64,000 nucleotides of DNA from Octopus vulgaris (taxonomy: Eukaryota): contig OX597821.1 of assembly GCA_951406725.2 (NCBI GenBank), forward strand, positions 52,452,001 to 52,516,000, given 5' to 3'. Under the pieces are notes generated by a model. That model did no database searches. It had not been told where the DNA came from and saw only the letters and a program-made list of their open reading frames with translations. A program made the position numbers and the translations under genes. Position 1 is the stretch's first letter; each line of letters starts with the position of its first letter. Positions 3,725-56,985 of the stretch are shown here, in pieces.

Positions 3725-6700
3725 TCACTGGAATATATATACGATGTTCCTAGCTGTCCGTTTGGGCGAAAACATGAAAACATCATTGCGCCTCCCAACG
3801 CGTGAACAGCCCACGTAGAGTTGACCGTGGGCGAAGCACTGTTCGCCCAAATGTAACCCAGCGACTTGTAGCGTTTGGCCTTGGGATTTATTGATGGACA
3901 TTGCGAAGCAGAGTTTAACAGGAAACTGAGAACGCCTGAAGTGGATTGGTAGGTCAGCGCCCGACGGTTGAAGGTGCATCCGTGGAATGAAGACGTCCTC
4001 TCCCTTCCCACAACCGATAAGTATTGTGGCCGTTATTAAATGTGGTGCCAAATGTTTCACAACCAAACGTGTGCCGTTGCACTGTTTAGGTGGAACCAAA
4101 TTCCTGATGAGCATAATGGGCGCACCGACTTTTAACTTCAGGATGTGTGGTGGCAGGCCTGGCGGTTCAAGTGAATTCAGGAATTCAACAGGATAATCGG
4201 CAAGCTGGGCGGGGTCTGCTGTCCTATCTATAGATTTGTAGACGTGGACATCACCAGGAATAGCTTCAAGTAGCTGGATATTGATGGAGTTGACGGTTGT
4301 ATTTTTGGGTGCGAGAATAGCTCTGCCTGCCAGCCATTTTAGGTCGCGTAAATTGTTTTGTAGGTCGTGGAAGACAGCGTCCCGGAGGCTAGCAGGGGTG
4401 TCGACAATGGTGCAAAGTGAGTCCAATTGAACGTAGCCATCCGCATCAGACAGCATCCTATTTTCACTGAGCGATAAGAGGTCCCTGGAGAATGCAGCGG
4501 ATCCGCTGTCACCAATTAACTGCGCGCGCATGTTAGTTTGGAGGTGCAAGGGCCGCACATGTGCCCAAAGAGCTGACGACTTAAGGCACGCGCGCACGGC
4601 ATCGGCACGGGTTCCTTTTGGAATAACAGGTAGAGTCTGCCTGAAGTCTCCTGAAAGAAGTAAAGTTAATCCTCCCATGGGGGCCGTAGAGTCTCTGATG
4701 TCTTGCAGGGACCTGTCCAGTGCCTCAAGGGCGCCTTTGTGTGCCATAGTGCACTCGTCCCATACGATGAGTTTGCATCTGCGCAGAATATCGGCCTGTT
4801 CTGAGTTCTTGGCGATGTTGCAGATAGGTGACTCGGACTTTGCCAGATCGAGCGGGAGTCTGAAGGCAGAGTGGGCGGTTCTGCCACCCGGAAGCAACGT
4901 GGCCGCGATACCAGAGGAAGCTACAGCCAGGGCAATGTCCGTGTTGCGTCTGACCTCTGCCAGAATTAGTTTAGTGACGAAGGTTTTGCCAGTGCCGCCG
5001 GGTGCATCAAGGAAGAAAATCCCCCCACGTTGCTGTCTGACAGAGTCTACGATGGTGTTGTAGGCTATGCGCTGGTCTGGAAGCAGCCGTGGTTCATTAT
5101 CTTGGACGTACTGGTGCAGTTCCTCAATGCAGTAGGAAGTTTCGCGTAACAATTCAGCAGACATAACATTGGCGTGTTCACGTGTGGGTGGTGGAAGGCC
5201 GTACTCTGTTAAAGCAGACCCACCCATATCGATGACAGCGTCTTCGAGTTGAATGAGCGCGAAATTGTAAATGAAGTTGGTGAACGTGATCTCGGCGGAA
5301 GGGCAGTGTTGCTGAGCCGTACGTAAGAAGTCGTGCGACATGTCATCCCTGTATTTCATCCAGAGACTTAGTGGATCACTAAGCTGACATTTTTGAAGAA
5401 GGATTGCGAAAAGATGTCGTAGGGCCGAATGCGTTTGCAGTAAAGCACCCTCTGCCATCGTGGCGACCCACTGGGAGTCATCCTCTAGAAGGCCAAGTCT
5501 CATACATGCTTCCCTGAAGGTGTCGCACAGAACCCCATTGACGGTACGTATATTGGCGAAACCTGTTGGACCAGTGACCTCATGTAGAAGGAGACGGAGG
5601 TAGAAGCATTCTTGCTGGTTTGGCGGGATGTTGTAAACTCGACCCAGGCAGGAGTCAAACTTGACGCCTGGGAAGCTTTCGACGTTTTTGCCGGATTTCC
5701 GTCGAACCCAGGTGTTTTTAGACCACACGAAGTACGATGGGACCTGTGGGTACAAAAGCGTTCGAGCGAAGTCATCACGTTGGCATAATTTGAAGAAACC
5801 AGTCAACGTTGTGTCTTTAGGGCTGGTGGCTATCTGCACAGCACTTTGCTCTGTGAAGTAAATCCGCTGTCCATTTTCCAAGTGTACAGCAAGCTGCACC
5901 ACAGCCGGGTGTCTCTGATGGAGCGGGAAGCCGTAAATGCGCCAAAACGCTTCGTTGCTGCTGAGGTACCGGCCAGCCAAGTAGTTGGACACTTCGTCGC
6001 GACTGGTGGTCCTCTGGATGCTGAACATGGCAGCATCGCTGCCTTTGTTGATATATTTGCCAGACATATTGTATTGACCTGATGGAGCTGCAGAACTCAA
6101 CGTTGACGTGGGCTTTGAATATCTTCGACAGGAGAGGACAGTAGGGGACAATGTAGCTGTTGTCCACTTGATGTCGCCCAACCGTAATCGTGCGGCCTCC
6201 ATTGGCTGGACTCCTTCGTTTGTACAGCGGATACCCATCGCCGCCTGTTTGAGTCTCCAAAGTGAACCGTTTAGGGAATCCCTTTGAGCAGGCTAATCCG
6301 TTTTTGTAGCATGGTGTGTTGGCGTAATTTGGTCCACAGGGCCCGTGTACCATGGTAGTGCGGACAATTTCGTAGAGTCCGGGGTCCTCATCGGGGTCAG
6401 GAATCTCGGCAGAAATGAATTTGTCAATGTCATTAGTCTCGATTTTATGAGTGAGCCAAATTAAGATGTGAGCATGTGGCAAGCCCCTCTTTTGCCACTC
6501 GACCGAAAACATGTGGCACCTGACATGCCCGAAAATCTGACCCTTAACTATCAAATCCTTCATTTTGCCCAAATTCAGACGGAAAACCCTAGCAACGATG
6601 TCGTGTCGATGGGTGTGAGATTGACCCGGGAGGAGTTCGCGAGTGATTTCGTCGCAGCTGGGATTGCACGTGTAGGTGATAAAGAGGTCCGGCCGGCCGT

Positions 6701-8591
6701 AAATGCGCACGTAGGTCAAGGCGTCTTGGGTCCTTTCACGCATATATCGCGGTCCTCCCGTGAAGGTGGAGGGTAGAATGCATGGCTTGCCGATGTTGCG
6801 AGGGTCATTTTCTTGTTGCAAACCGTCACGGAGATGAATGTAGGAGTCGGAGCGAAGTTTGGTCTGATTAAGTTTAATGTATAGCAGCCTTTCCGATTCC
6901 ATTCTTGCGGCCATGTCGACGGCGAACTGGTTGAATAGCTGACGACAACGGGGCAATAAGTTGAACTCACCCTCCCTGACCATGAACCGGTATGAGTAGA
7001 ACGCCCTGCAGGAAACCGTCTTTGATGCCGCAGTAGTTTGATTGGAGGGCTGCCTTAAAGGAATTCCGAAGTGGTAGCCGTCTTCCCCATAAGGGAAAAG
7101 CAATGGATACTGAAGCGCGTCATAAGATCTGTGAGTCTCGCTGATCCTGTGTAGGTTGTTACCACGGGAGGAGATGATTATGTCACGGCTGTTGTGTTGC
7201 TCTCCGTGTATAACTGCGGCAATTTCGTTGCACGCAGGTGCGTTGAAACGGCGTTCGTGCTCCCCGTGGGGTCGTTTATCAGCATCAATGACAACGGTGA
7301 AGTTTGGAGATGGAGCACTGTCCAAGGCATATCTGAAGCTGCAGACGTAGCTGTTGATATCATGAAGCATGGTTTGGAGACGGAGAAGAATGTCTTTGCG
7401 GGGAACATAGCTTGTACCCGGTATTATTCGAAGGCGTGCATCAACCTGGTGGTTGTAGTCGGCAATGAAGTATATTTGGAGGAAAGAAGACTGCTGAATC
7501 TCGTCTGGCAGAAGTGACCCAATAAGATGGTAGACCTGTCCCTGCACTTTGAAAGTAGGCATCCAGCCTTCTCTGGGAGGAATTTTGGCCCCGAAAGAGG
7601 TCATTTGGAATGAGCAGTTGTACTTTCGAATTATTTCAAGGAATTGTGACGAATCGGGGGTTAAACCCGCCGCGAGATCCTTCAGTGGTTGAGGTGGTTC
7701 CCGTAGGGGTGGCAGGTCCACTTTGCCACCAGAGCAGCACAAACCAGGTGGCTCTCCGGGCCATTTCTTGGCTTTGCAAAACTGGCATACAATTGTCATT
7801 GACCCTATCTTGATGTCGTCACGCAAGGAGAAGTTAATTGTGGCGTCGTAGTTGAATGCTAGTGACAACCAGAAAGCGGGGGCAGGGGTACGTACACCAC
7901 GAATGATATCCCGACGTTTGTTGATACTCTCAAGTCGAGTGCACCGTGCCTCAGCAGATTCAGATGCACGTGCGACAGCGGTAGCAGTGGCATCCCTTGA
8001 AAGCCTTTCAGCTCTCGCCTCAGCACCCTCTGAAGCCCTAGCAGAAGCAGTGTTAATGGCATGTCTGGATGTCCGAATAGTCCGTTGGTGTGGAGTTTCG
8101 GCAGATCGAGCCCTGGCTGTGTTTGCGGCGTTAGCAGCTTGGCGAGCTCTCCTCTGTTGAGGTGTTTCGGCAGCTTTGGCCATGGCTTTGTTTGCGGCGT
8201 CAGCATCTTGGCGAGTTCTCCTCTGCTGTGAGGTTTCGACAGATCGTGTCCTGGCAGTGCTAGTGGCGTTAGCCGCATTCCGAATGGCCCTTTGTTCGGG
8301 GTTCTCGCGAGCTCTGCGGATGGAAGCACAGTAAGAAGCCCGCATGTTTTGGCTGGACTGTTGCTCTTTCGTCAACCTCGAGCGGAGGGAAGATCTGTAC
8401 GCTGCGACCCTTGCAAGTCGGGTAGAACGGTCGCTAGTAGTTTCAGATGCCTGAGCAGCGGCATAACGGGAAGCTGTTTGCGAGAGGCGCAAGGCGGTTT
8501 CCTCGTGGGTCTCGCGTGCCCTTCTAGCCCTAGCAGCCGATGCCTTGGCCGTCCGAGGGCTGAGGAGGGTCCTTCTCTTCTTGGGTGGCAT
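3725..8591 (-). pseudogene. Helitron RepHel transposase (Zn finger, HUH/Y2 Rep, PIF1-like SF1B helicase), split by one +1 frameshift at 6060-6061
   Basis: Likely start MPPKKRR at 8591 (aaaATG context, NLS-like). Motifs: [86 protein letters not shown]. Removing one base from GTC TG[G]C AAA restores YVCKYINKGSD and fuses the two ORFs into about 1621 aa. Confidence 0.95.
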
Positions 8592-8711
8592 TTTGGTGGA
8601 TAGCAATGTGTTTGGCAAAGGTGTAATAAAAAGGAACACGTGGGGTAAGTATTTTGGTGGATAGCAATGTGTTTGGTAAAGGTGTAATAAAAAGGAGCTC
8701 GTGGGGTAAGT
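8590..8711. repeat. 2 x 61-bp tandem repeat in the Helitron 5' UTR, abutting the start codon
   Basis: attttggtggatagcaatgtgtttgg...gtggggtaagt at 8590-8650 and 8651-8711, with a few mismatches. Confidence 0.9.
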
Positions 8712-9740
8712 ATCCGAAAATGTATAAAAATGTACAAAAACGGCCAAAAAGCTGGCAGCAATGTGAGTGACAACAACGAAAAAGTCAAAAGTGATCAAAC
8801 TGAACAAACGAAAGGAAAAGTTTTTTGATGCACACGACAAAAGTGGTTTATAATAAACCAAGAGTTTGCAAGTAGCGTCCGAGGACCGTTAGGGTACGTC
8901 AAAAATTGAAGGTAAAACGTTTGGGGTGGTAGTTATAAAGAAAGTTTAAACCAAAAAAGTATTCGAATAACTTGCGGCTGCAGCAGCTATTAGCAGAAGT
9001 GGCGGTGTTGGGGGTAAAGTCTCGAATGTAATTTCTTCCTGGTAGGAATTGGTTGGATCGAATTATCGATAGCTAAAAAGGTCAAGTTGCGTCCCCTAGA
9101 CAGTCTGGTTTGTGTTTAATACACAAATTTGTTTGCTATGTGTGCCACATATGATTAAATTAACCGATTTTTACCAATAATGTATCCTATTGGAATAAAA
9201 AGGGCTATATAGCTCCTTGGAGCAGACATGATACTCGTTGTGAAAAAAAAAAGATTCCTGCCAATTTGTGAAAGATATTGTCGAAAATATGTCATCTTGA
9301 ATTTGAACGCGATTTCCCAAAATGGCATGATTTTATCGATTGTTTCTGATGGTAAGGTATTGCATGGAAAACTAACGTCAGAATTGAGTTTCTTAGGGTA
9401 ACATTAAGCTTCACCATGAGTTTGGTGAAAATCGATTGCAAGTTGTGAAAACTACCATAGATAATGCGTTGCATAAAAAAAGCTTAGATTCTCGAGTTGC
9501 GTCCCCTAGACAGTCTGTGGTTCATGTTTATGATTCTCGACCCCATGTCGAATTTATCAATTTTTTTCAGAACTGGGGGAACTTTTCAAAATTTTCGCTG
9601 CGTTAGTTTTGAATTATGACATTGGGCTATGTGTGTGTCAAGTTTCATCAGAATCGGTTGAAAGCCGTGGTCAGGGTGAGGGTACGAGAAAACAGACACA
9701 CAGAAGCACGCACAGACAAACTGCCGTTTATATATATAGA

Positions 9741-10817: not shown

Positions 10818-11082
10818 AATTGCAGCGTGGAAGGTTTTTTATAAGCCATTTAAGAAACACACAAAAACCGTTAGATTCACTTCAACATTTAAATTTAATT
10901 TGTCAAAATATTTTCGTCGCTTTCCGACAAAAATTCCCAGATGCAGCACGGAATTTTGGCAGTGAACAGGTCGCGGTTTCAAAGCGACGAAAATATTTTG
11001 CCAAATTAAATTTGAATGTTGAAGAGAATTTAACGGTTTTTGTGTGTTTCTTAAATGGCTTATAAACACCTTCCACGCTGCA

Positions 11083-13177: not shown

Positions 13178-13339
13178 CTATCATATAATTCATAGGGAAA
13201 CAGATACCGATAAATAAACTGTTACTCATTATTTATCTTTAGTCGCAGGAACTATATAGAATTTTGTTAAAATTTGGGTTCTTAAGCCATTCCTTTTTTA
13301 ATTGAAACATATATGAATGTTTTTTATGCTTTTGCCAGA

Positions 13340-16145
<2,806 letters not shown>

Positions 16146-24749: not shown

Positions 24750-24750
<1 letters not shown>
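24350..24750 (-). mobile_element. PLE GIY-YIG fragment
   Basis: EYFYIGETSFIFNMRLADHLSSF...TRLRKLIWSIKD, the same pattern as the C-terminus of the 13313 ORF. Confidence 0.7.
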
Positions 24751-24806
<56 letters not shown>

Positions 24807-24975
24807 ACATAAGGAACATTAGCCATTTGAATGTGGCTAGGGACAGGGCAGGGCGGTGGGGGTGTTACTGATGCATTTAGCCCCAGGCGATCATCAACGT
24901 CACCAGATAGGCTGACACCATCACGGTGTCCTCTATCCTGCAAAGGGAGATCATTCCCCGAAGAAGCGGATGCCA

Positions 24976-25020
24976 CATACGGACCCAGGTTTCAAGGTAT
25001 TTGCCTATCGTCAACGTATG
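24976..25020 (-). ncRNA. Type I hammerhead ribozyme in the 357-bp unit (inverted copy)
   Basis: Reverse complement of 25272-25316. Confidence 0.72.
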
Positions 25021-25271
25021 GCAGGCACCGCTCCTCGACGAACAACTTCATGTGCAGGATATTTATATATAGATTTTCACGTAAATACATTTACTGATTT
25101 CGAAAATCTGTTCGACAGCAATAATAATTCTCTAAACGAGATATAGACAGTAACTGCTCCATCACATAAGGGACATCAGCCATTTGAATGTGGCTAGGGA
25201 CAGGGCAGGGCGGTGGGGGTGTTATTGATGCATTTAGCCCCAGGCGATCATCAACGTCACCAGATGCCTGC

Positions 25272-25316
25272 CATACGTTGACGATAGGCAAATACCTTGA
25301 AACCTGGGTCCGTATG
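25272..25316 (+). ncRNA. Type I hammerhead ribozyme in the 357-bp unit
   Basis: CAUACG [UUGACGA] U AGG-CAAAUA-CCU U [GAAA] CCUGGG [UC]^CGUAUG; predicted cut at 25310/25311. Confidence 0.75.
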
Positions 25317-25628
25317 TGGCATCCGCTTCTTCGGGGAATGATCTCCCTTTGCAGGACAGAGGACACCGTGATGGTGTCAGCCTATCTGGTGACGTTGATG
25401 ATCACCTGGGGCTAAATGCATCAGTAACACCCCCACCACCCTGCCCTGTCCCTAGCCACATTCAAATGGCTAATGTCCCTTATGTGATGGAGCAGTTACT
25501 GTCTATATCTCGTTTAGAGAATTATTATTGCTGTCGAACAGATTTTCGAAATCAGTAAATGTATTTACGTGAAAATCTATATATAAATATCTTGCACAGG
25601 AAGTTGTTCGTCGAGGAGCGGTGCCTGC

Positions 25629-25673
25629 CATACGTTGACGATAGGCAAGTACCTTGAAACCTGGGTCCGTATG
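25629..25673 (+). ncRNA. Type I hammerhead ribozyme in the 357-bp unit
   Basis: Same motif, with loop II CAAGUA. Stem I extends via GAGGAGCGG-UGCC / GGCA-U-CCGCUUCUUC. Predicted cut at 25667/25668. Confidence 0.75.
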
Positions 25674-25985
25674 TGGCATCCGCTTCTTCGGGGAATGATC
25701 TCCCTTTGCAGGAGAGAGGACACCGTGATGGTGTCAGCCTATCTGGTGACGTTGATGATCGCCTGGGGCTAAATGCATCAGTAACACCCCCACCGCCCTG
25801 CCCTGTCCCTAGCCACATTCAAATGGCTAATGTCCCTTATGTGATGGAGCAGTTACTGTCTATATCTCGTTTAGAGAATTATTATTGCTGTCGAACAGAT
25901 TTTCGAAATTAGTAAATGTATTTACGTGAAAATCTATATATAGATATCCTGCACAGGAAGTTGTTCGTCGAGGAGCGGTGCCTGC

Positions 25986-26030
25986 CATACGTTGACGATA
26001 GGCAAATACCTTGAAACCTGGGTCCGTATG
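25986..26030 (+). ncRNA. Type I hammerhead ribozyme in the 357-bp unit
   Basis: Same motif; predicted cut at 26024/26025. Confidence 0.75.
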
Positions 26031-26244
26031 TGGCATCCGCTTCTTCGGGGAATGATCTCCCTTTGCAGGAGAGAGGACACCGTGATGGTGTCAGCCTATC
26101 TGGTGACGTTGATGATCGCCTGGGGCTAAATGCATCAGTAACACCCCCACCGCCCTGCCCTGTCCCTAGCCACATTCAAATGGCTAATGTCCCTTATGTG
26201 ATGGAGCAGTTAATGTATAAATCTCGTTTAGAGAATTATTATTG

Positions 26245-26302
<58 letters not shown>

Positions 26303-26716: not shown

Positions 26717-26794
<78 letters not shown>

Positions 26795-26798
<4 letters not shown>

Positions 26799-27925
26799 AA
26801 ACAAGTCAAAAATAGAAAATGCTAAGATAATTTTATAGTGAATCTTTCAGTACCGGTTTCGGTCATTTTGAGACCTTTTCAACTGTAACGATTAAATAAT
26901 TAAATTTAGAAAAATTAGAAGAAAAGTTTTTTTAAAAGAATATTTCTATAGTAGTGTTCAGATATAAGTGGCATTCTGCCTTTCTCTGACTCCCTTGTTT
27001 GCACTTGTGTGTTCGAGGTCGTTGTGAGTTCTTGGTAGGGTAGGAGAAGCAGAAGGCTGATGTGGAGAGGGGGTGGGGAAATCTGGGAATGCCTTGATGG
27101 TCGTATTTTGAATGGTCAGTGGCGGACAGCAGTCGCAGTTCAATTCAGGAATTGTTTATGGAATTTGCGTAGGCGTTATACTGAAAGGCATTAGTGACAA
27201 GGTTAAGAGGTAGGAGGTGGTGAAGTAGAAGAAGGAGAAGATGACGATGTTGATGATGATGATGATGAAGAAGAAGAAGAAGAAGAAGAAGAAGAAGAAG
27301 GAGAAGGAGAGGATGATGATGATGATGGTGGTGATGATGATGACGACGATGATGATGATAATGATGATGATGAAGAAGAAGAGGAAGAAGAAGAGGAAGA
27401 AGAAGAAAAAACAGAGAAGGGAGAATATGAATGGGTGAAAGTATAGCTGTGATGGGGCTGATTAGTAATGGATTCTATGGAATGTAATATTTGTGTGTGT
27501 ATATATTTCTTTTATTCTAAAGTTGAGGTATATTAATTGTTTGTCGTAGACCCGTTAAGAAGTGGCCTGTATTTTGTAATAAAGAGATTTTCTTTACTTA
27601 TTCGTTGTCTCGAGGTTGTATCGTCCCTAAATTGGTAGAGGGGAAAATCCTGAAGTTTGGTGTTTTTTTGTTGGCGCAAGTACCTATGTGTTGGCTAAAA
27701 GCTATTTTTCTGTTTTGGGGAATTTTTATCTGGGATCTGTGCAGGGCCATTCGTTTACGCAAACCATTTTTTGTTTGGCCTATGTACTGCTCTTGACACC
27801 CGGAGCAGGTTAGCGAGTATATTAGGTTCTCCGATGCACATGTGAAGTTGCTTTTCATTGTAAACCGTTGTCCCTGTTTGAAGGAGAACTCTGATCCCTC
27901 AATTAGATAGTCGCATATCCCGCAA
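26795..27925 (-). mobile_element. PLE 3' fragment (GIY-YIG with CxxC, Neptune/Naiad-type) with 3' UTR
   Basis: CGICDYL...NFTCASENLIYSLTCSGCQEQYIGQTKNGLRKRMALHRSQI; the UTR contains an (ATG)/(AAG) tract and a hammerhead; TA tracts on both sides. Confidence 0.85.
26848..26885 (-). ncRNA. Minimal type I hammerhead, U3-A8 core variant
   Basis: CAG [UUGAAAA] GGUC-UCAAAAU-GACC [GAAA] CCGG [UA] CUG. Confidence 0.72.
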
Positions 27926-28507
27926 TATATATATATATAATTATGGTGATGTAATCACGAAAAATAGAACGCAGAATATGAGTATATGTATATTTTCTTA
28001 ATATTTAGCAGAACCAACAAAGTAACTCAAGGTCACAGTTTTCTAAGTGCTAACGTAGGAAACTATTGCGATACTCTTAAAGTCAGGGCATTTTCAGCTC
28101 TCACTCGTGTACTGACAGACAGACACATACACACGCACACATACATATAGTAATGAGTTCAGGGTAGATGACTTCTTGGGGGAAAATTTAATAAAAGAGA
28201 TAATTTGTTCATGGAAACAGGATAATGAGAAAATAGCAAGAGCTTAAAATGATTCGAAGAGGAATATTTTCAGATAAATATGTAGTATAAGAAGATTTTG
28301 ATGCAAAAAAAGGAAAAATTTAACAACAGTAAAATGTAAAGTGATGTTCAAAGCAATCTTTTCTGTTTTCCTCCATAACGAGTTGGTGCCAAAAACATTT
28401 TAAATATAATTGTCAATTAGTGATGAAGAGAAAATGTAAAAAAAAATAGAGAAGCATAAATAAGAGAATATTGTCTATATAGAATAAAAAAAGTTGACCT
28501 ACATTTT

Positions 28508-28976: not shown

Positions 28977-29620
<644 letters not shown>

Positions 29621-37082: not shown

Positions 37083-37145
37083 TAATAGAACTGCGAGTTT
37101 CGGATGGCGGAGAGGAAATCTGCTCCGGCATCTCGTCAGTTATTA
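37083..37145 (-). ncRNA. Degenerate type I hammerhead
   Basis: UAAUAA [CUGACGA] GAUG..GGAG..CUCC..CAUC C [GAAA] CUCGCAG [UU] CUAUUA; first stem I pair is mismatched. Confidence 0.5.
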
Positions 37146-43312: not shown

Positions 43313-43404
43313 TAATAATGGGTGAAAACATTAATAATTTTACCAGGTGTTCAGTGCAGAAATAAAAACCTCATAGTTAATTTTACAAAGTAATTTCATA
43401 ATTA

Positions 43405-43699
43405 TATACATAATTATAACAAGGGATTGGCTATACGCATCACCACGCACTGTAGAAATAGGCGTTAACTGCCCTATTACCACCTTAAATTCTCCGAGAA
43501 TAACATTATATTGAAGGAGAGCAAAAGAAAACTAATGAATCAACAGCTTTTCGGTTGATTCACTATTTTTCTTTTCTCGCCTACAATATAATATAGTGTG
43601 TTATTCTCGGAGAATTTTAGGTGGTAATAGGACATTTAACGTCTATTTCTACAGTGTGTGCTGAGGCATAAAACCAATCCATTGTTATAATTATGTATA
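43405..43699. repeat. About 295-bp imperfect fold-back
   Basis: tatacataattataacaa...attaccacc..aaattctccgagaataaca pairs with tgttattctcggagaattt..ggtggtaat...ttgttataattatgtata; centre at about 43546-43552. Confidence 0.85.
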
Positions 43700-43834
43700 T
43701 GGATATAAAATTATAATATATATATATATATATATAACGTATATAAATATAATGTATATAAATATACACAATAAATATATATATAATATAAATATACACA
43801 AATATATTTATATATACATACACAATATATACTC

Positions 43835-44094: not shown

Positions 44095-44187
44095 TACTAA
44101 TAGAGGATAAAAGTTTTTCAGAAAAAATAAATTCATCAAAAGTGGCAGCATATTAAAATATCTTTAAACGTTAAAATTATAAACAAC

Positions 44188-44546
44188 TTATAAACAAGGA
44201 CAAAACAAAAATTATGTCTATCCAATATGCTGAGAACAGACTTTAAATCGTCAATTTTCACATTTCAGTATACATTCACTATAAATACACGTCGTGCTGA
44301 AATCAAGGAAAGCTAGCCAACAGAAGGTTTTAAAAAAGTTCGTTATTTCTATATTGAATCCATAGGATTAATCCCGAAATTGATTCAATTTAGAAATAAC
44401 GAACTTTTAAAAACAATTCTATTCGCTAGTTTCCCTCCTCGACGTGTATTTATAATGAATGTATAATGAAATGTTGAAATTGACGATTTAAAGTCTGTTC
44501 TCAGCATGTTGGCAAATAAATAAATTTTCTTTTGCCCTTTTTATAA
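44188..44546. repeat. About 360-bp imperfect fold-back; arm family also at ~17455-17605
   Basis: atgctgagaacagactttaaatcgtcaattt pairs with aaattgacgatttaaagtctgttctcagcat; aaaagttcgttatttcta pairs with tagaaataacgaactttt. Confidence 0.85.
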
Positions 44547-44585
44547 CTTATATATATATATACACAATATATCTATATACAATAT

Positions 44586-55915: not shown

Positions 55916-55994
<79 letters not shown>

Positions 55995-55996
<2 letters not shown>

Positions 55997-56980
55997 TCAA
56001 TAAATGGTGGGGTTGTGTTGACCGCACCCCGGAATACCGACAAATTCCACTGAGTGACCACTTAGACTCATGTGCTAAAGACTTAAACCCCAAATTCTAT
56101 ATATTCCCCTTCTACCAATGTAAAGACGGGATCACCACACAGGAGAGAATTAACAAGGAGAATCTCTTTATTGAAAAATTCCAAACACAACTTAATATGC
56201 AAACTCCTCGTTGATCAAACTTCCTTTCTCTACCTCACTCTTCATGGATGGACTAACACAAATATATAAAGATACCATGCATTCACCACTTCAAGCTAAA
56301 ACTTATATTCTTTAAATATCATTTTCACTATTGTTGTTGTTACTACTATCATTTTTATTATAAATGATATGACAATTTGAAATGCAATTGTCTATGCAGT
56401 TTTATATTATTAGAAAATAATATAAATAAAGTGTTAAAATCTGAAAGTTAAGTTAACAAGCAATTATATAAAAAAGATAATGCAAATGAAGCTAAAATGA
56501 TAGTTTTATAATTTGGGTTTTATTGAAGAACTCAAAAGAGTTGTCTCCCCTTACTCACAACACAGGAACTGAAGAACCAGGACCACAATTACTACTACTT
56601 CCTGTCCTGCAACATGCTGAATTTAACAACACAACACATCACATGCTCTTAATCCCTTTGGATCTTAACACCTCAAGGTAATTTTTTGGTAAACAACCAT
56701 AAAACTCAAGATACACAACGAACTCACAATGTATCGGAGAACTTATTTTTTTAATTTTTGTACATTTTTATCATTATTCTTTTACAAAAAACATTGCAAT
56801 TTTCTTTTTTTCCCCTTTCTAATTTTTAAAAAAAACTTCTTAAAACATAAATATTCTTGACAAGTCATACATTGACGAAAACCGGTTGAATAAATATATA
56901 TATTTATATATTTTATCATTTTCTCATTTTATTAAAATTTTCTTTCATTTGAGCATTCTGCATTTTTAAAAAATTTTCCT

Positions 56981-56985
<5 letters not shown>
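55995..56985 (+). mobile_element. PLE 3' fragment related to the 26795-27925 element
   Basis: EYRQIPLSDHLDSCAKDLNPKFYIFPFYQC..ERINKENLFIEKFQTQLN (cf. NRKIAFSQHIGTCANKKTPNFRIFP); long UTR with a hammerhead; flanked by TA tracts. Confidence 0.8.
56852..56892 (+). ncRNA. Minimal type I hammerhead, U3-A8 core variant (one extra A after GAAA)
   Basis: UAUUC [UUGACAA] GUCA-UACAU-UGAC [GAAA] A CCGG [UU] GAAUA. Confidence 0.65.

What the first reader, a model, noticed from the sequence alone, without database searches (positions are those of the whole stretch)
26848..26885. U3-A8 hammerhead conserved in two diverged PLE subfamilies (also 56852-56892)
Seen: two PLE 3' UTRs with related but clearly diverged GIY-YIG tails both carry U3..A8 cores (UUGAAAA and UUGACAA) and a CCGG palindromic stem III. 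Their stem I (CAG/CUG against UAUUC/GAAUA) and stem II (GGUC/GACC against GUCA/UGAC) sequences differ yet still pair. That is the pattern expected from selection on structure rather than decay. With the G3-C8 and C3-G8 copies, three of the four Watson-Crick options occur in one 64-kb window.
Basis: partly seen in the sequence, partly recalled or inferred. Interest (0 to 1): 0.72.

Follow-up and report, generated by a model that had tools for sequence, protein, structure and literature searches.

The report
Penelope hammerheads with swapped core pair
The two motifs are the tail ends of two young, high-copy jumping-gene families whose hammerhead-shaped RNA carries U-A instead of the usual C-G core pair (already reported in blood flukes); related families in this genome carry A-U, G-C, C-G and mismatched forms, so the pairing is likely kept by selection, but self-cutting is untested.

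Summary
Both motifs are real. They lie in the 3' pseudo-LTRs of two Neptune-type Penelope-like families (RT-endonuclease 56.5% identical). U3-A8 is the family state: 32 of 32 and 35 of 35 copies. The G3-C8 and C3-G8 motifs are also in the window. Across 11 related families the stems covary (29/33 and 18/22 pairs; 13 and 8 when shuffled). U3-A8 with a palindromic helix III is already published for Schistosoma PLEs.

The two subfamilies likely inherited one old C-G to U-A switch: relatives from other hosts are C3-G8 in 8 of 9. The genome also holds an A3-U8 family with a G3-C8 subfamily, U.G subfamilies, and a 360-bp retrozyme with U-A, C.A and C-G subfamilies. I did not find natural A3-U8 or G3-C8 in print, but Lunse 2017 was not available.

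Results against: mismatched forms amplified; site 2's stem III is one base out of register; the retrozyme's direction of change is not secured (AU p 0.07-0.28); no cleavage or RNA evidence. This scan has already noted these variants on other DNA of this genome.

The parts
26848..26885 (-). Minimal type I hammerhead, U3-A8 (family F1); predicted cut between 26851 and 26850
   Evidence: 32 of 32 family copies U3-A8; double-hammerhead fold -18.5 kcal/mol, monomer hammerhead fold +0.9
26794..27926 (-). 5'-truncated copy of Neptune-type PLE family F1: GIY-YIG tail 27924-27536 (frameshifted near 27640), 3' UTR/pLTR, ending at a (TA)n run
56852..56892 (+). Minimal type I hammerhead, U3-A8 (family F2), stem III one base out of register; predicted cut between 56887 and 56888
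   Evidence: 35 of 35 family copies identical in the motif; double-hammerhead fold -8.9 with a bulged A
56028..56984 (+). 5'-truncated copy of family F2: GIY-YIG tail 56029-56211, 3' UTR/pLTR, ending at (TA)n; short inverted piece at 55991-56027
10955..11005 (+). G3-C8 minimal hammerhead (7-bp stem I, G after A9, stem III AAUAUU) in a short fold-back repeat of a very large family
15972..16009 (+). C3-G8 hammerhead-like motif (weak stem II) in the 3' UTR of the PLE whose ORF lies at 13286-14884
   Evidence: 13 of 13 copies identical, about 1 kb after the endonuclease
37083..37145 (-). C3-G8 hammerhead-like motif with long stem II, worn copy of another PLE-linked repeat
13286..14884 (+). 5'-truncated RT plus GIY-YIG-like ORF of a different PLE lineage
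   Evidence: motifs read by eye; no Pfam hit at E<=0.001

Best explanation
The two motifs are minimal type I hammerheads in the pseudo-LTRs of two Neptune-type Penelope-like retrotransposon families that likely inherited one old C3-G8 to U3-A8 swap, and in full-length tandem elements they are predicted to cut the RNA as a double hammerhead. Shown: motif anatomy; U3-A8 as family state; position about 650 nt after the RT-GIY-YIG frame and, in tandem copies, about 120-175 nt before ORF1; covariation of all three stems across families; other pairs at 3-8 in related families. Inferred: a transcript running through two pLTRs (4.6 kb apart in F2) brings two palindromic stems III together, the element's protein likely helps folding, and the double cut would release a unit-length RNA, perhaps then circularised. 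Selection in the active parent lineages likely keeps position 3 paired with position 8 whatever the letters, and lets mismatched steps survive for a while. The two window copies are truncated by-products that are probably not under selection.
For: Family state U3-A8: 32/32 and 35/35. Genome-wide with ACCGGU: 3609 U-A (control 5), 137 C-G, 48 U3 with another 8, 101 A8 with another 3. Stem pairing was not required by the collecting patterns, yet is 29/33 (shuffled 13.4; 0 of 20000 as high) and 18/22 (8.1; p 0.00015) over 11 families, and position 17 is never G in the 14 rows. The palindrome is kept under change: F1's sister (64% aa) has ACAUGU; ACGCGU and AGCGCU also occur. Double-hammerhead folds are stable (-15 to -30 kcal/mol for seven motifs) while monomer folds of the ACCGGU motifs are +2.6 to -3.1. 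Six families of this genome form one clade, SH-aLRT 100. Relatives from other hosts are C3-G8 in 8 of the 9 loci with a motif, of 17 examined. A3-U8 family: 27/30 A-U, 2/30 G-C; 10 of its 12 G3 copies have C8. In Anolis PAc the C3G and G8C single mutants are dead, the double mutant partly recovers, and cleavage needs the protein (PMC11167929).
Against: No cleavage data. C.A subfamilies amplified, including tandem arrays, and U.G subfamilies occur, one with an open endonuclease frame. The young, high-copy F2 subfamily has stem III out of register; its best dimer (-19.5) ties up U17 and the catalytic dimer is only -8.9. One of the 11 families (GCGU) has no stem I in register and one (GCAA) a poor stem II. 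In PAc, hammerhead mutants do not impair insertion in vitro and no RNA-seq reads end at the cut (PMC11167929). PLE minimal hammerheads cleave poorly in vitro (PMC4209133). The larger 28-row tree leaves monophyly of this genome's families unresolved. Stem III length was set by hand for F2 and F3 in the covariation test.
Confidence: 0.68

Rival explanations
1. The fold is kept mainly as a protein-binding, dimerising or template-positioning structure for the RT; cleavage is marginal or dispensable.
For: PAc hammerhead mutants insert normally in vitro (PMC11167929). Naiads spread without canonical hammerheads (PMC8557442). C.A and U.G subfamilies and the out-of-register F2 subfamily amplified.
Against: The 3-8 contact is a base pair of the catalytic core (PMC3088659) and is restored by double changes in several lineages. 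Position 17 avoids G in all 14 rows. A purely scaffolding role would not obviously need either.
Confidence: 0.2
2. U3-A8 arose separately in the two subfamilies (convergence).
For: The 28-row tree does not resolve the families as one clade. The pair has changed several times in this genome. One weak U3-A8 candidate sits in another host's element (L488).
Against: All but one of the sampled autonomous ACCGGU families between and around F1 and F2 have U3, mostly with A8, and three changes explain the endonuclease tree. The 18-row tree joins them with SH-aLRT 100.
Confidence: 0.08
3. U3-A8 is transition decay of a dead C3-G8 ribozyme in AT-rich DNA.
For: Both changes are C-to-T and G-to-A transitions, and C7-G8 can form a CpG in the retrozyme (sequence).
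Against: The state is fixed in young families with open reading frames. Single-change forms are about 4% as frequent as U-A. Stems keep G-C pairs and covary. A-U needs two transversions from U-A, and G-C and C-G forms run against the bias.
Confidence: 0.04

Closest known systems
Minimal type I hammerheads in pLTRs of metazoan PLEs, including the U3-A8 families of Schistosoma Cercyon elements (Cervera and de la Pena 2014, PMC4209133; main text parts 1-2 of 4 and supplement file 2 parts 1-2 of 3 read)
   Same: Type I topology, short stem I, palindromic helix III, pLTR position, U3-A8 covariation (about 1,300 hits there); a U3.G8 example (Saccoglossus) is in their Fig. S3.
   Different: Here the host element is Neptune-type, stem III is a 6-8 nt palindrome without the extra base after A9, and U3-A8 marks a whole multi-family clade. 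A3-U8 and G3-C8 families and an amplified C.A form are not among their 56 listed representatives, nor is any cephalopod.
Natural U3-A8 hammerhead variants (Perreault et al. 2011, PMC3088659; section 8 and passages read)
   Same: C3-G8 covarying to U3-A8 in nature; such pairs are stated to be active in vitro.
   Different: Described there as rare variants in several examples; other pairs at 3-8 are not named in the section read.
Small dimer-cleaving PLE hammerhead variants (Lunse, Weinberg and Breaker 2017; not held, seen only as cited in PMC6765202)
   Same: Short palindromic stem III, dimeric cleavage, PLE association.
   Different: Could not check whether G3-C8 or A3-U8 are listed there.
Neptune clade of endonuclease-bearing PLEs (Craig et al. 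2021, PMC8557442; passages read)
   Same: RT, CX2-5CxxC linker, C-terminal GIY-YIG, (TA)n targets, tandem and inverted copies.
   Different: These families have two overlapping ORFs joined at a U UUU UUA run. The paper calls EN+ PLEs single-ORF, though its Fig. 1 legend mentions an ORF1 frameshift for PLE types I could not see.
Animal non-LTR retrozymes (PMC7229834, passages; bioRxiv 10.64898/2026.07.22.740005, part 1 of 5)
   Same: The 360-bp tandem family with the same ACCGGU hammerhead fits this class and its proposed PLE origin.
   Different: Its subfamilies differ at the 3-8 pair (U-A, C.A, C-G).

Membership tests
Minimal type I hammerhead (PLE type) | Core N3-UGA-N7-N8-A9 ... GAAA ... 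UH with 3 and 8 paired | tested here: met
   U3-A8, U16.1, A17 or U17 at both sites; family state
Minimal type I hammerhead (PLE type) | Stems I and II with covariation; G10.1-C11.1 | tested here: met
   29/33 and 18/22 against 13.4 and 8.1; G10.1-C11.1 was part of the collecting pattern, so it is not an independent test
Minimal type I hammerhead (PLE type) | Palindromic stem III allowing a double hammerhead (site 1) | tested here: met
   ACCGGU; dimer -18.5, monomer +0.9 kcal/mol
Minimal type I hammerhead (PLE type) | Palindromic stem III in register with A15.1-U16.1 (site 2) | tested here: inconclusive
   Needs a bulged A; -8.9 against -16.5 for the sister subfamily; family F3 has the same 7-nt form
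Minimal type I hammerhead (PLE type) | Site-specific self-cleavage | not testable with these tools
   Only assembled contigs were available
Neptune-type EN+ PLE | RT followed by C-terminal GIY-YIG | tested here: met
   RVT_1 E 3e-8 and 8e-8; GIY-YIG E 1.5e-4 and 1.5e-3, below Pfam cut-off; motifs located
Neptune-type EN+ PLE | CX2-5CxxC linker before the endonuclease (shared with Nematis) | tested here: met
   Found in F1 and F2
Neptune-type EN+ PLE | pLTR tandems, inverted 5'-truncated copies, (TA)n targets | tested here: met
Neptune-type EN+ PLE | RT phylogeny with named Neptune references | not tested
   No named reference elements were in the trees; Neptune versus Nematis rests on the linker, target and recalled resemblance
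Neptune-type EN+ PLE | Single ORF | tested here: not met
   Full-length F1 and F2 copies have ORF1 overlapping the RT frame at a shared U UUU UUA run
Non-LTR retrozyme (the 360-bp relative, outside the window) | Non-coding tandem units, one type I hammerhead each | tested here: met
   359-360 bp spacing, no endonuclease hit upstream
Non-LTR retrozyme (the 360-bp relative, outside the window) | Circular RNA in cells | not testable with these tools
   Contigs only

The most novel reading that the evidence does not exclude
One retroelement radiation has run the hammerhead's catalytic 3-8 pair through all four Watson-Crick forms, with the half-way mismatches (C.A, U.G) preserved as amplified subfamilies, including a U-A to C.A to C-G return to the canonical pair in a retrozyme. 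All forms are working ribozymes whose rates are tuned to the element's life cycle, which gives a natural fitness landscape for a ribozyme active site and means that C3-G8 searches miss most hammerheads in such genomes.
Probability: 0.3. Interest if true: 0.68.

Novelty: new variant of a known kind. Interest (0 to 1): 0.42.

Why it matters
Whether PLE hammerheads matter to the element is open: they cleave poorly in vitro and were dispensable in one in vitro insertion assay. Repeated compensatory swaps of a core pair argue that the catalytic fold is selected in the parent elements. The natural series (C-G, U-A, A-U, G-C, C.A, U.G, and a one-base register shift) is a ready-made test set that links cleavage rate to success in spreading. 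It also shows that C3-G8 descriptors undercount hammerheads in this genome. The U3-A8 observation by itself is ordinary.

Tried and rejected
Rfam scan: no hammerhead among the 150 matches shown; the top hits were microsatellite artefacts. MAFFT on the five window motifs misaligned them and was not used. The F1 and F2 3' UTRs share only short AT-rich matches, so no DNA tree spans both. Sequencing runs: no RNA holder listed, and all runs laid were contigs, so RNA ends, strand and expression could not be read. The bulk A3-U8 count shows no excess over control (972 against 990); the family was found by reading the list and then tested on its own. Direction between A-U and G-C in that family is unresolved (star-like tree). 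Direction in the retrozyme is favoured but not shown: rootings with U-A derived were not rejected (p-AU 0.07 and 0.28). C-G and C.A forms also occur in runs labelled as other organisms, which does not date them. No stable hairpin was found after the slippery run. A G17 reading of site 2 was rejected because it leaves the base before U3 unpaired. Papers not held: Lunse 2017, Przybilski and Hammann 2007, Hammann 2012, Arkhipova 2017.

Full report
OBSERVATION. Both motifs are present as described. Site 1 (26848-26885, minus) has stem I CAG/CUG, core UUGAAAA, stem II GGUC/GACC, stem III ACCGGU and A17. Site 2 (56852-56892, plus) has stem I UAUUC/GAAUA, core UUGACAA, stem II GUCA/UGAC, stem III AACCGGU and U17. 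A descriptor written after seeing them finds these two and the G3-C8 copy (core at 10962), against 0.02 hits per shuffled window (300 block shuffles). C3-G8 motifs lie at 15972-16009 (+), about 1 kb after the PLE frame at 13286-14884 and identical in 13 of 13 copies, and at about 37083-37145 (-). So three of the four pairs do occur in the window. One correction: site 2's palindrome is one base out of register.

WHAT THE ELEMENTS ARE. The genome is 2.8 Gb in 227 contigs; a cephalopod is my guess, also worded so in earlier scan notes, and I did not test it. Both sites belong to young high-copy families: 2655 and 1113 first-look candidates, with the 40 scored 97-100% identical. The window copies are 5'-truncated and end at (TA)n. 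[quoted passage not shown] F1 and F2 are 56.5% identical over 734 aa and their UTRs do not align. Full F2 units are 4.6 kb from hammerhead to hammerhead, and the predicted cut lies about 120 nt (F1) and 175 nt (F2) before the first AUG of ORF1.

FAMILY STATE. In the 60 loci fetched, 32 of 32 F1 copies and 35 of 35 F2 copies are U3-A8; 14 unrelated or cut-off fuzzy anchor hits were set aside. These are the copies closest to the window's, so I also counted genome-wide with the ACCGGU stem III. U3-A8 gave 3609 (reversed-pattern control 5). C3-G8 gave 137 with a slightly looser pattern (control 12), mostly one 360-bp tandem repeat, plus a single F1 copy (L211). U3 with another base at 8 gave 48, and A8 with another base at 3 gave 101.

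SELECTION ON STRUCTURE. Young copies cannot show selection, so I compared families. One hand-picked copy was taken from each of 11 families, collected by patterns that fixed only the core, G10.1, C11.1 and stem III. The first three pairs of stem I are formed in 29 of 33 cells (partners shuffled among families: 13.4; 0 of 20000 as high). Pairs 2-3 of stem II are formed in 18 of 22 (8.1; p 0.00015). Stem III length was set by hand for F2 and F3, one family has no stem I in register, and the families are related, so the p values are indicative only. The palindrome also changes while staying palindromic: F1's closest sampled sister (64% aa) has ACAUGU, and ACGCGU and AGCGCU families exist. Position 17 is A, C or U in all 14 rows. 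Computed double-hammerhead folds are stable (site 1 -18.5 kcal/mol) where the monomer fold is not (+0.9). Site 2 needs a bulged A (-8.9), and its preferred dimer ties up U17. Its sister subfamilies (91-96% aa identical) have the clean 8-nt palindrome, so the abundant F2 subfamily lost one U and still spread.

HISTORY OF THE PAIR. On an endonuclease tree of 19 copies, three changes explain the states, with U-A as background. With relatives from other hosts, six families of this genome form one clade in an 18-row quick tree (SH-aLRT 100), but a 28-row tree with short and long-branch rows leaves this open. Of 17 relative loci from other hosts examined (of 91 fetched), 9 show a palindromic hammerhead after the ORF: 8 are C3-G8 (two of them near-identical; three with ACCGGU) and 1 is a weak U3-A8. 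The simplest reading is one old switch to U3-A8, shared by F1 and F2 by descent.

OTHER STATES IN THE SAME GENOME. (a) An A3-U8 family has a 6-bp stem I, ACCGGU and an endonuclease 52-61% identical to the related families. In a BLAST sample 27 of 30 copies are A-U and 2 are G-C. By pattern, 108 copies have A3 (95 of the 100 listed are A-U) and 15 have another base, of which 10 are G-C. Direction is unresolved. (b) U.G subfamilies occur, one with an open endonuclease frame. (c) The 360-bp retrozyme has U-A, C.A and C-G subfamilies. With positions 3 and 8 masked, the tree rooted on a U-A relative runs U-A, then C.A, then C-G, with 100/100 support for the branch that parts U-A from the other two. 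The outgroup sides with the oldest U-A group against C-G at 14 sites to 4, and nearest-neighbour distances fall from 0.041 to 0.002. AU tests do not reject the opposite rootings (p 0.07 and 0.28), so a return to C-G is favoured, not shown. (d) A loose census gave U-A 13296 (control 1993), G-C 9223 (752; one family, the window's), C-G 4554 (492) and A-U 972 (990). The pattern requires G right after A9 and so undercounts many C-G families.

MECHANISM. Most likely, a transcript through two pLTRs pairs the two palindromes, forms two catalytic junctions and is cut to unit length, with help from the element's protein as shown for Anolis PAc (PMC11167929, parts 1-2 of 4). The identity of the 3-8 pair matters less than its pairing. 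All of this is inferred. Against a strict need for cleavage: amplified mismatches, the F2 register shift, low in vitro activity of PLE hammerheads (PMC4209133), and normal insertion by PAc hammerhead mutants.

WHAT IS KNOWN. U3-A8 in PLE minimal hammerheads and palindromic helix III are in PMC4209133, and natural U3-A8 is in PMC3088659. I found no natural A3-U8 or G3-C8, and no cephalopod survey, in searches or in the supplement pages read. G3-C8 appeared only as a lab mutant (PMC3884650, passages; PMC11167929). Lunse 2017 and three other key papers were not held, one Cervera supplement file was not searchable, and bioRxiv supplements are closed, so this absence is weak. Earlier notes of this scan, read after my analyses, report the same variants and the frameshift on other DNA of this genome; they are not independent support.

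VERDICT. A real, family-fixed, known variant. The wider clade-level series of 3-8 states is the part worth a bench test. Interest 0.42.

Noticed in passing
L232, L234, L235, L236, L239 (full-length F1 and F2); L409, L412, L415, L441 (other hosts): Two overlapping ORFs: a coiled-coil-like ORF1 and the RT-GIY-YIG frame, joined at a conserved U UUU UUA run that reads HFLD in ORF1 and FFR in ORF2; likely a -1 ribosomal frameshift. No stable hairpin follows.
   Followed up: partly
L211 (G000:C13:524776): A single F1 copy with C3-G8, nested among U-A copies on the endonuclease tree; a double change in one copy is unexpected by chance.
   Followed up: partly
L406, L408, L409 (other hosts); L218 and similar copies in this genome: Hammerheads whose stem II opens with a U.U mismatch at 10.1-11.1; L414 has almost no stem II.
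   Followed up: no
L362-L365: The most frequent U3-A8 family in the census has a different build (G after A9, 5-bp stem II, AAUU stem III) that resembles the G3-C8 family; no endonuclease was linked to it, so a second origin of U3-A8 is possible.
   Followed up: partly
L366, L367: A second tandem retrozyme (about 361 bp, stem III ACGCGU) with U3-A8 and one C3.A8 copy.
   Followed up: no
window 3725-8888 (-): Helitron Rep and PIF1 helicase frames (855 and 1023 aa) that overlap in different frames, with STPR repeats at the N-terminus.
   Followed up: no
window 24750-26292: Nested direct (357-bp period) and inverted repeats, 92-98% identical, with a tandem-plus-inverted layout.
   Followed up: no
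window 29008-29451, 43391-43713, 44178-44556: Fold-back (self-inverted) repeats of 320-450 bp.
   Followed up: no
L484-L494 and proteins P0036, P0049, P0060: These animal PLEs occur in assemblies labelled as bacterial, most likely host contamination.
   Followed up: no
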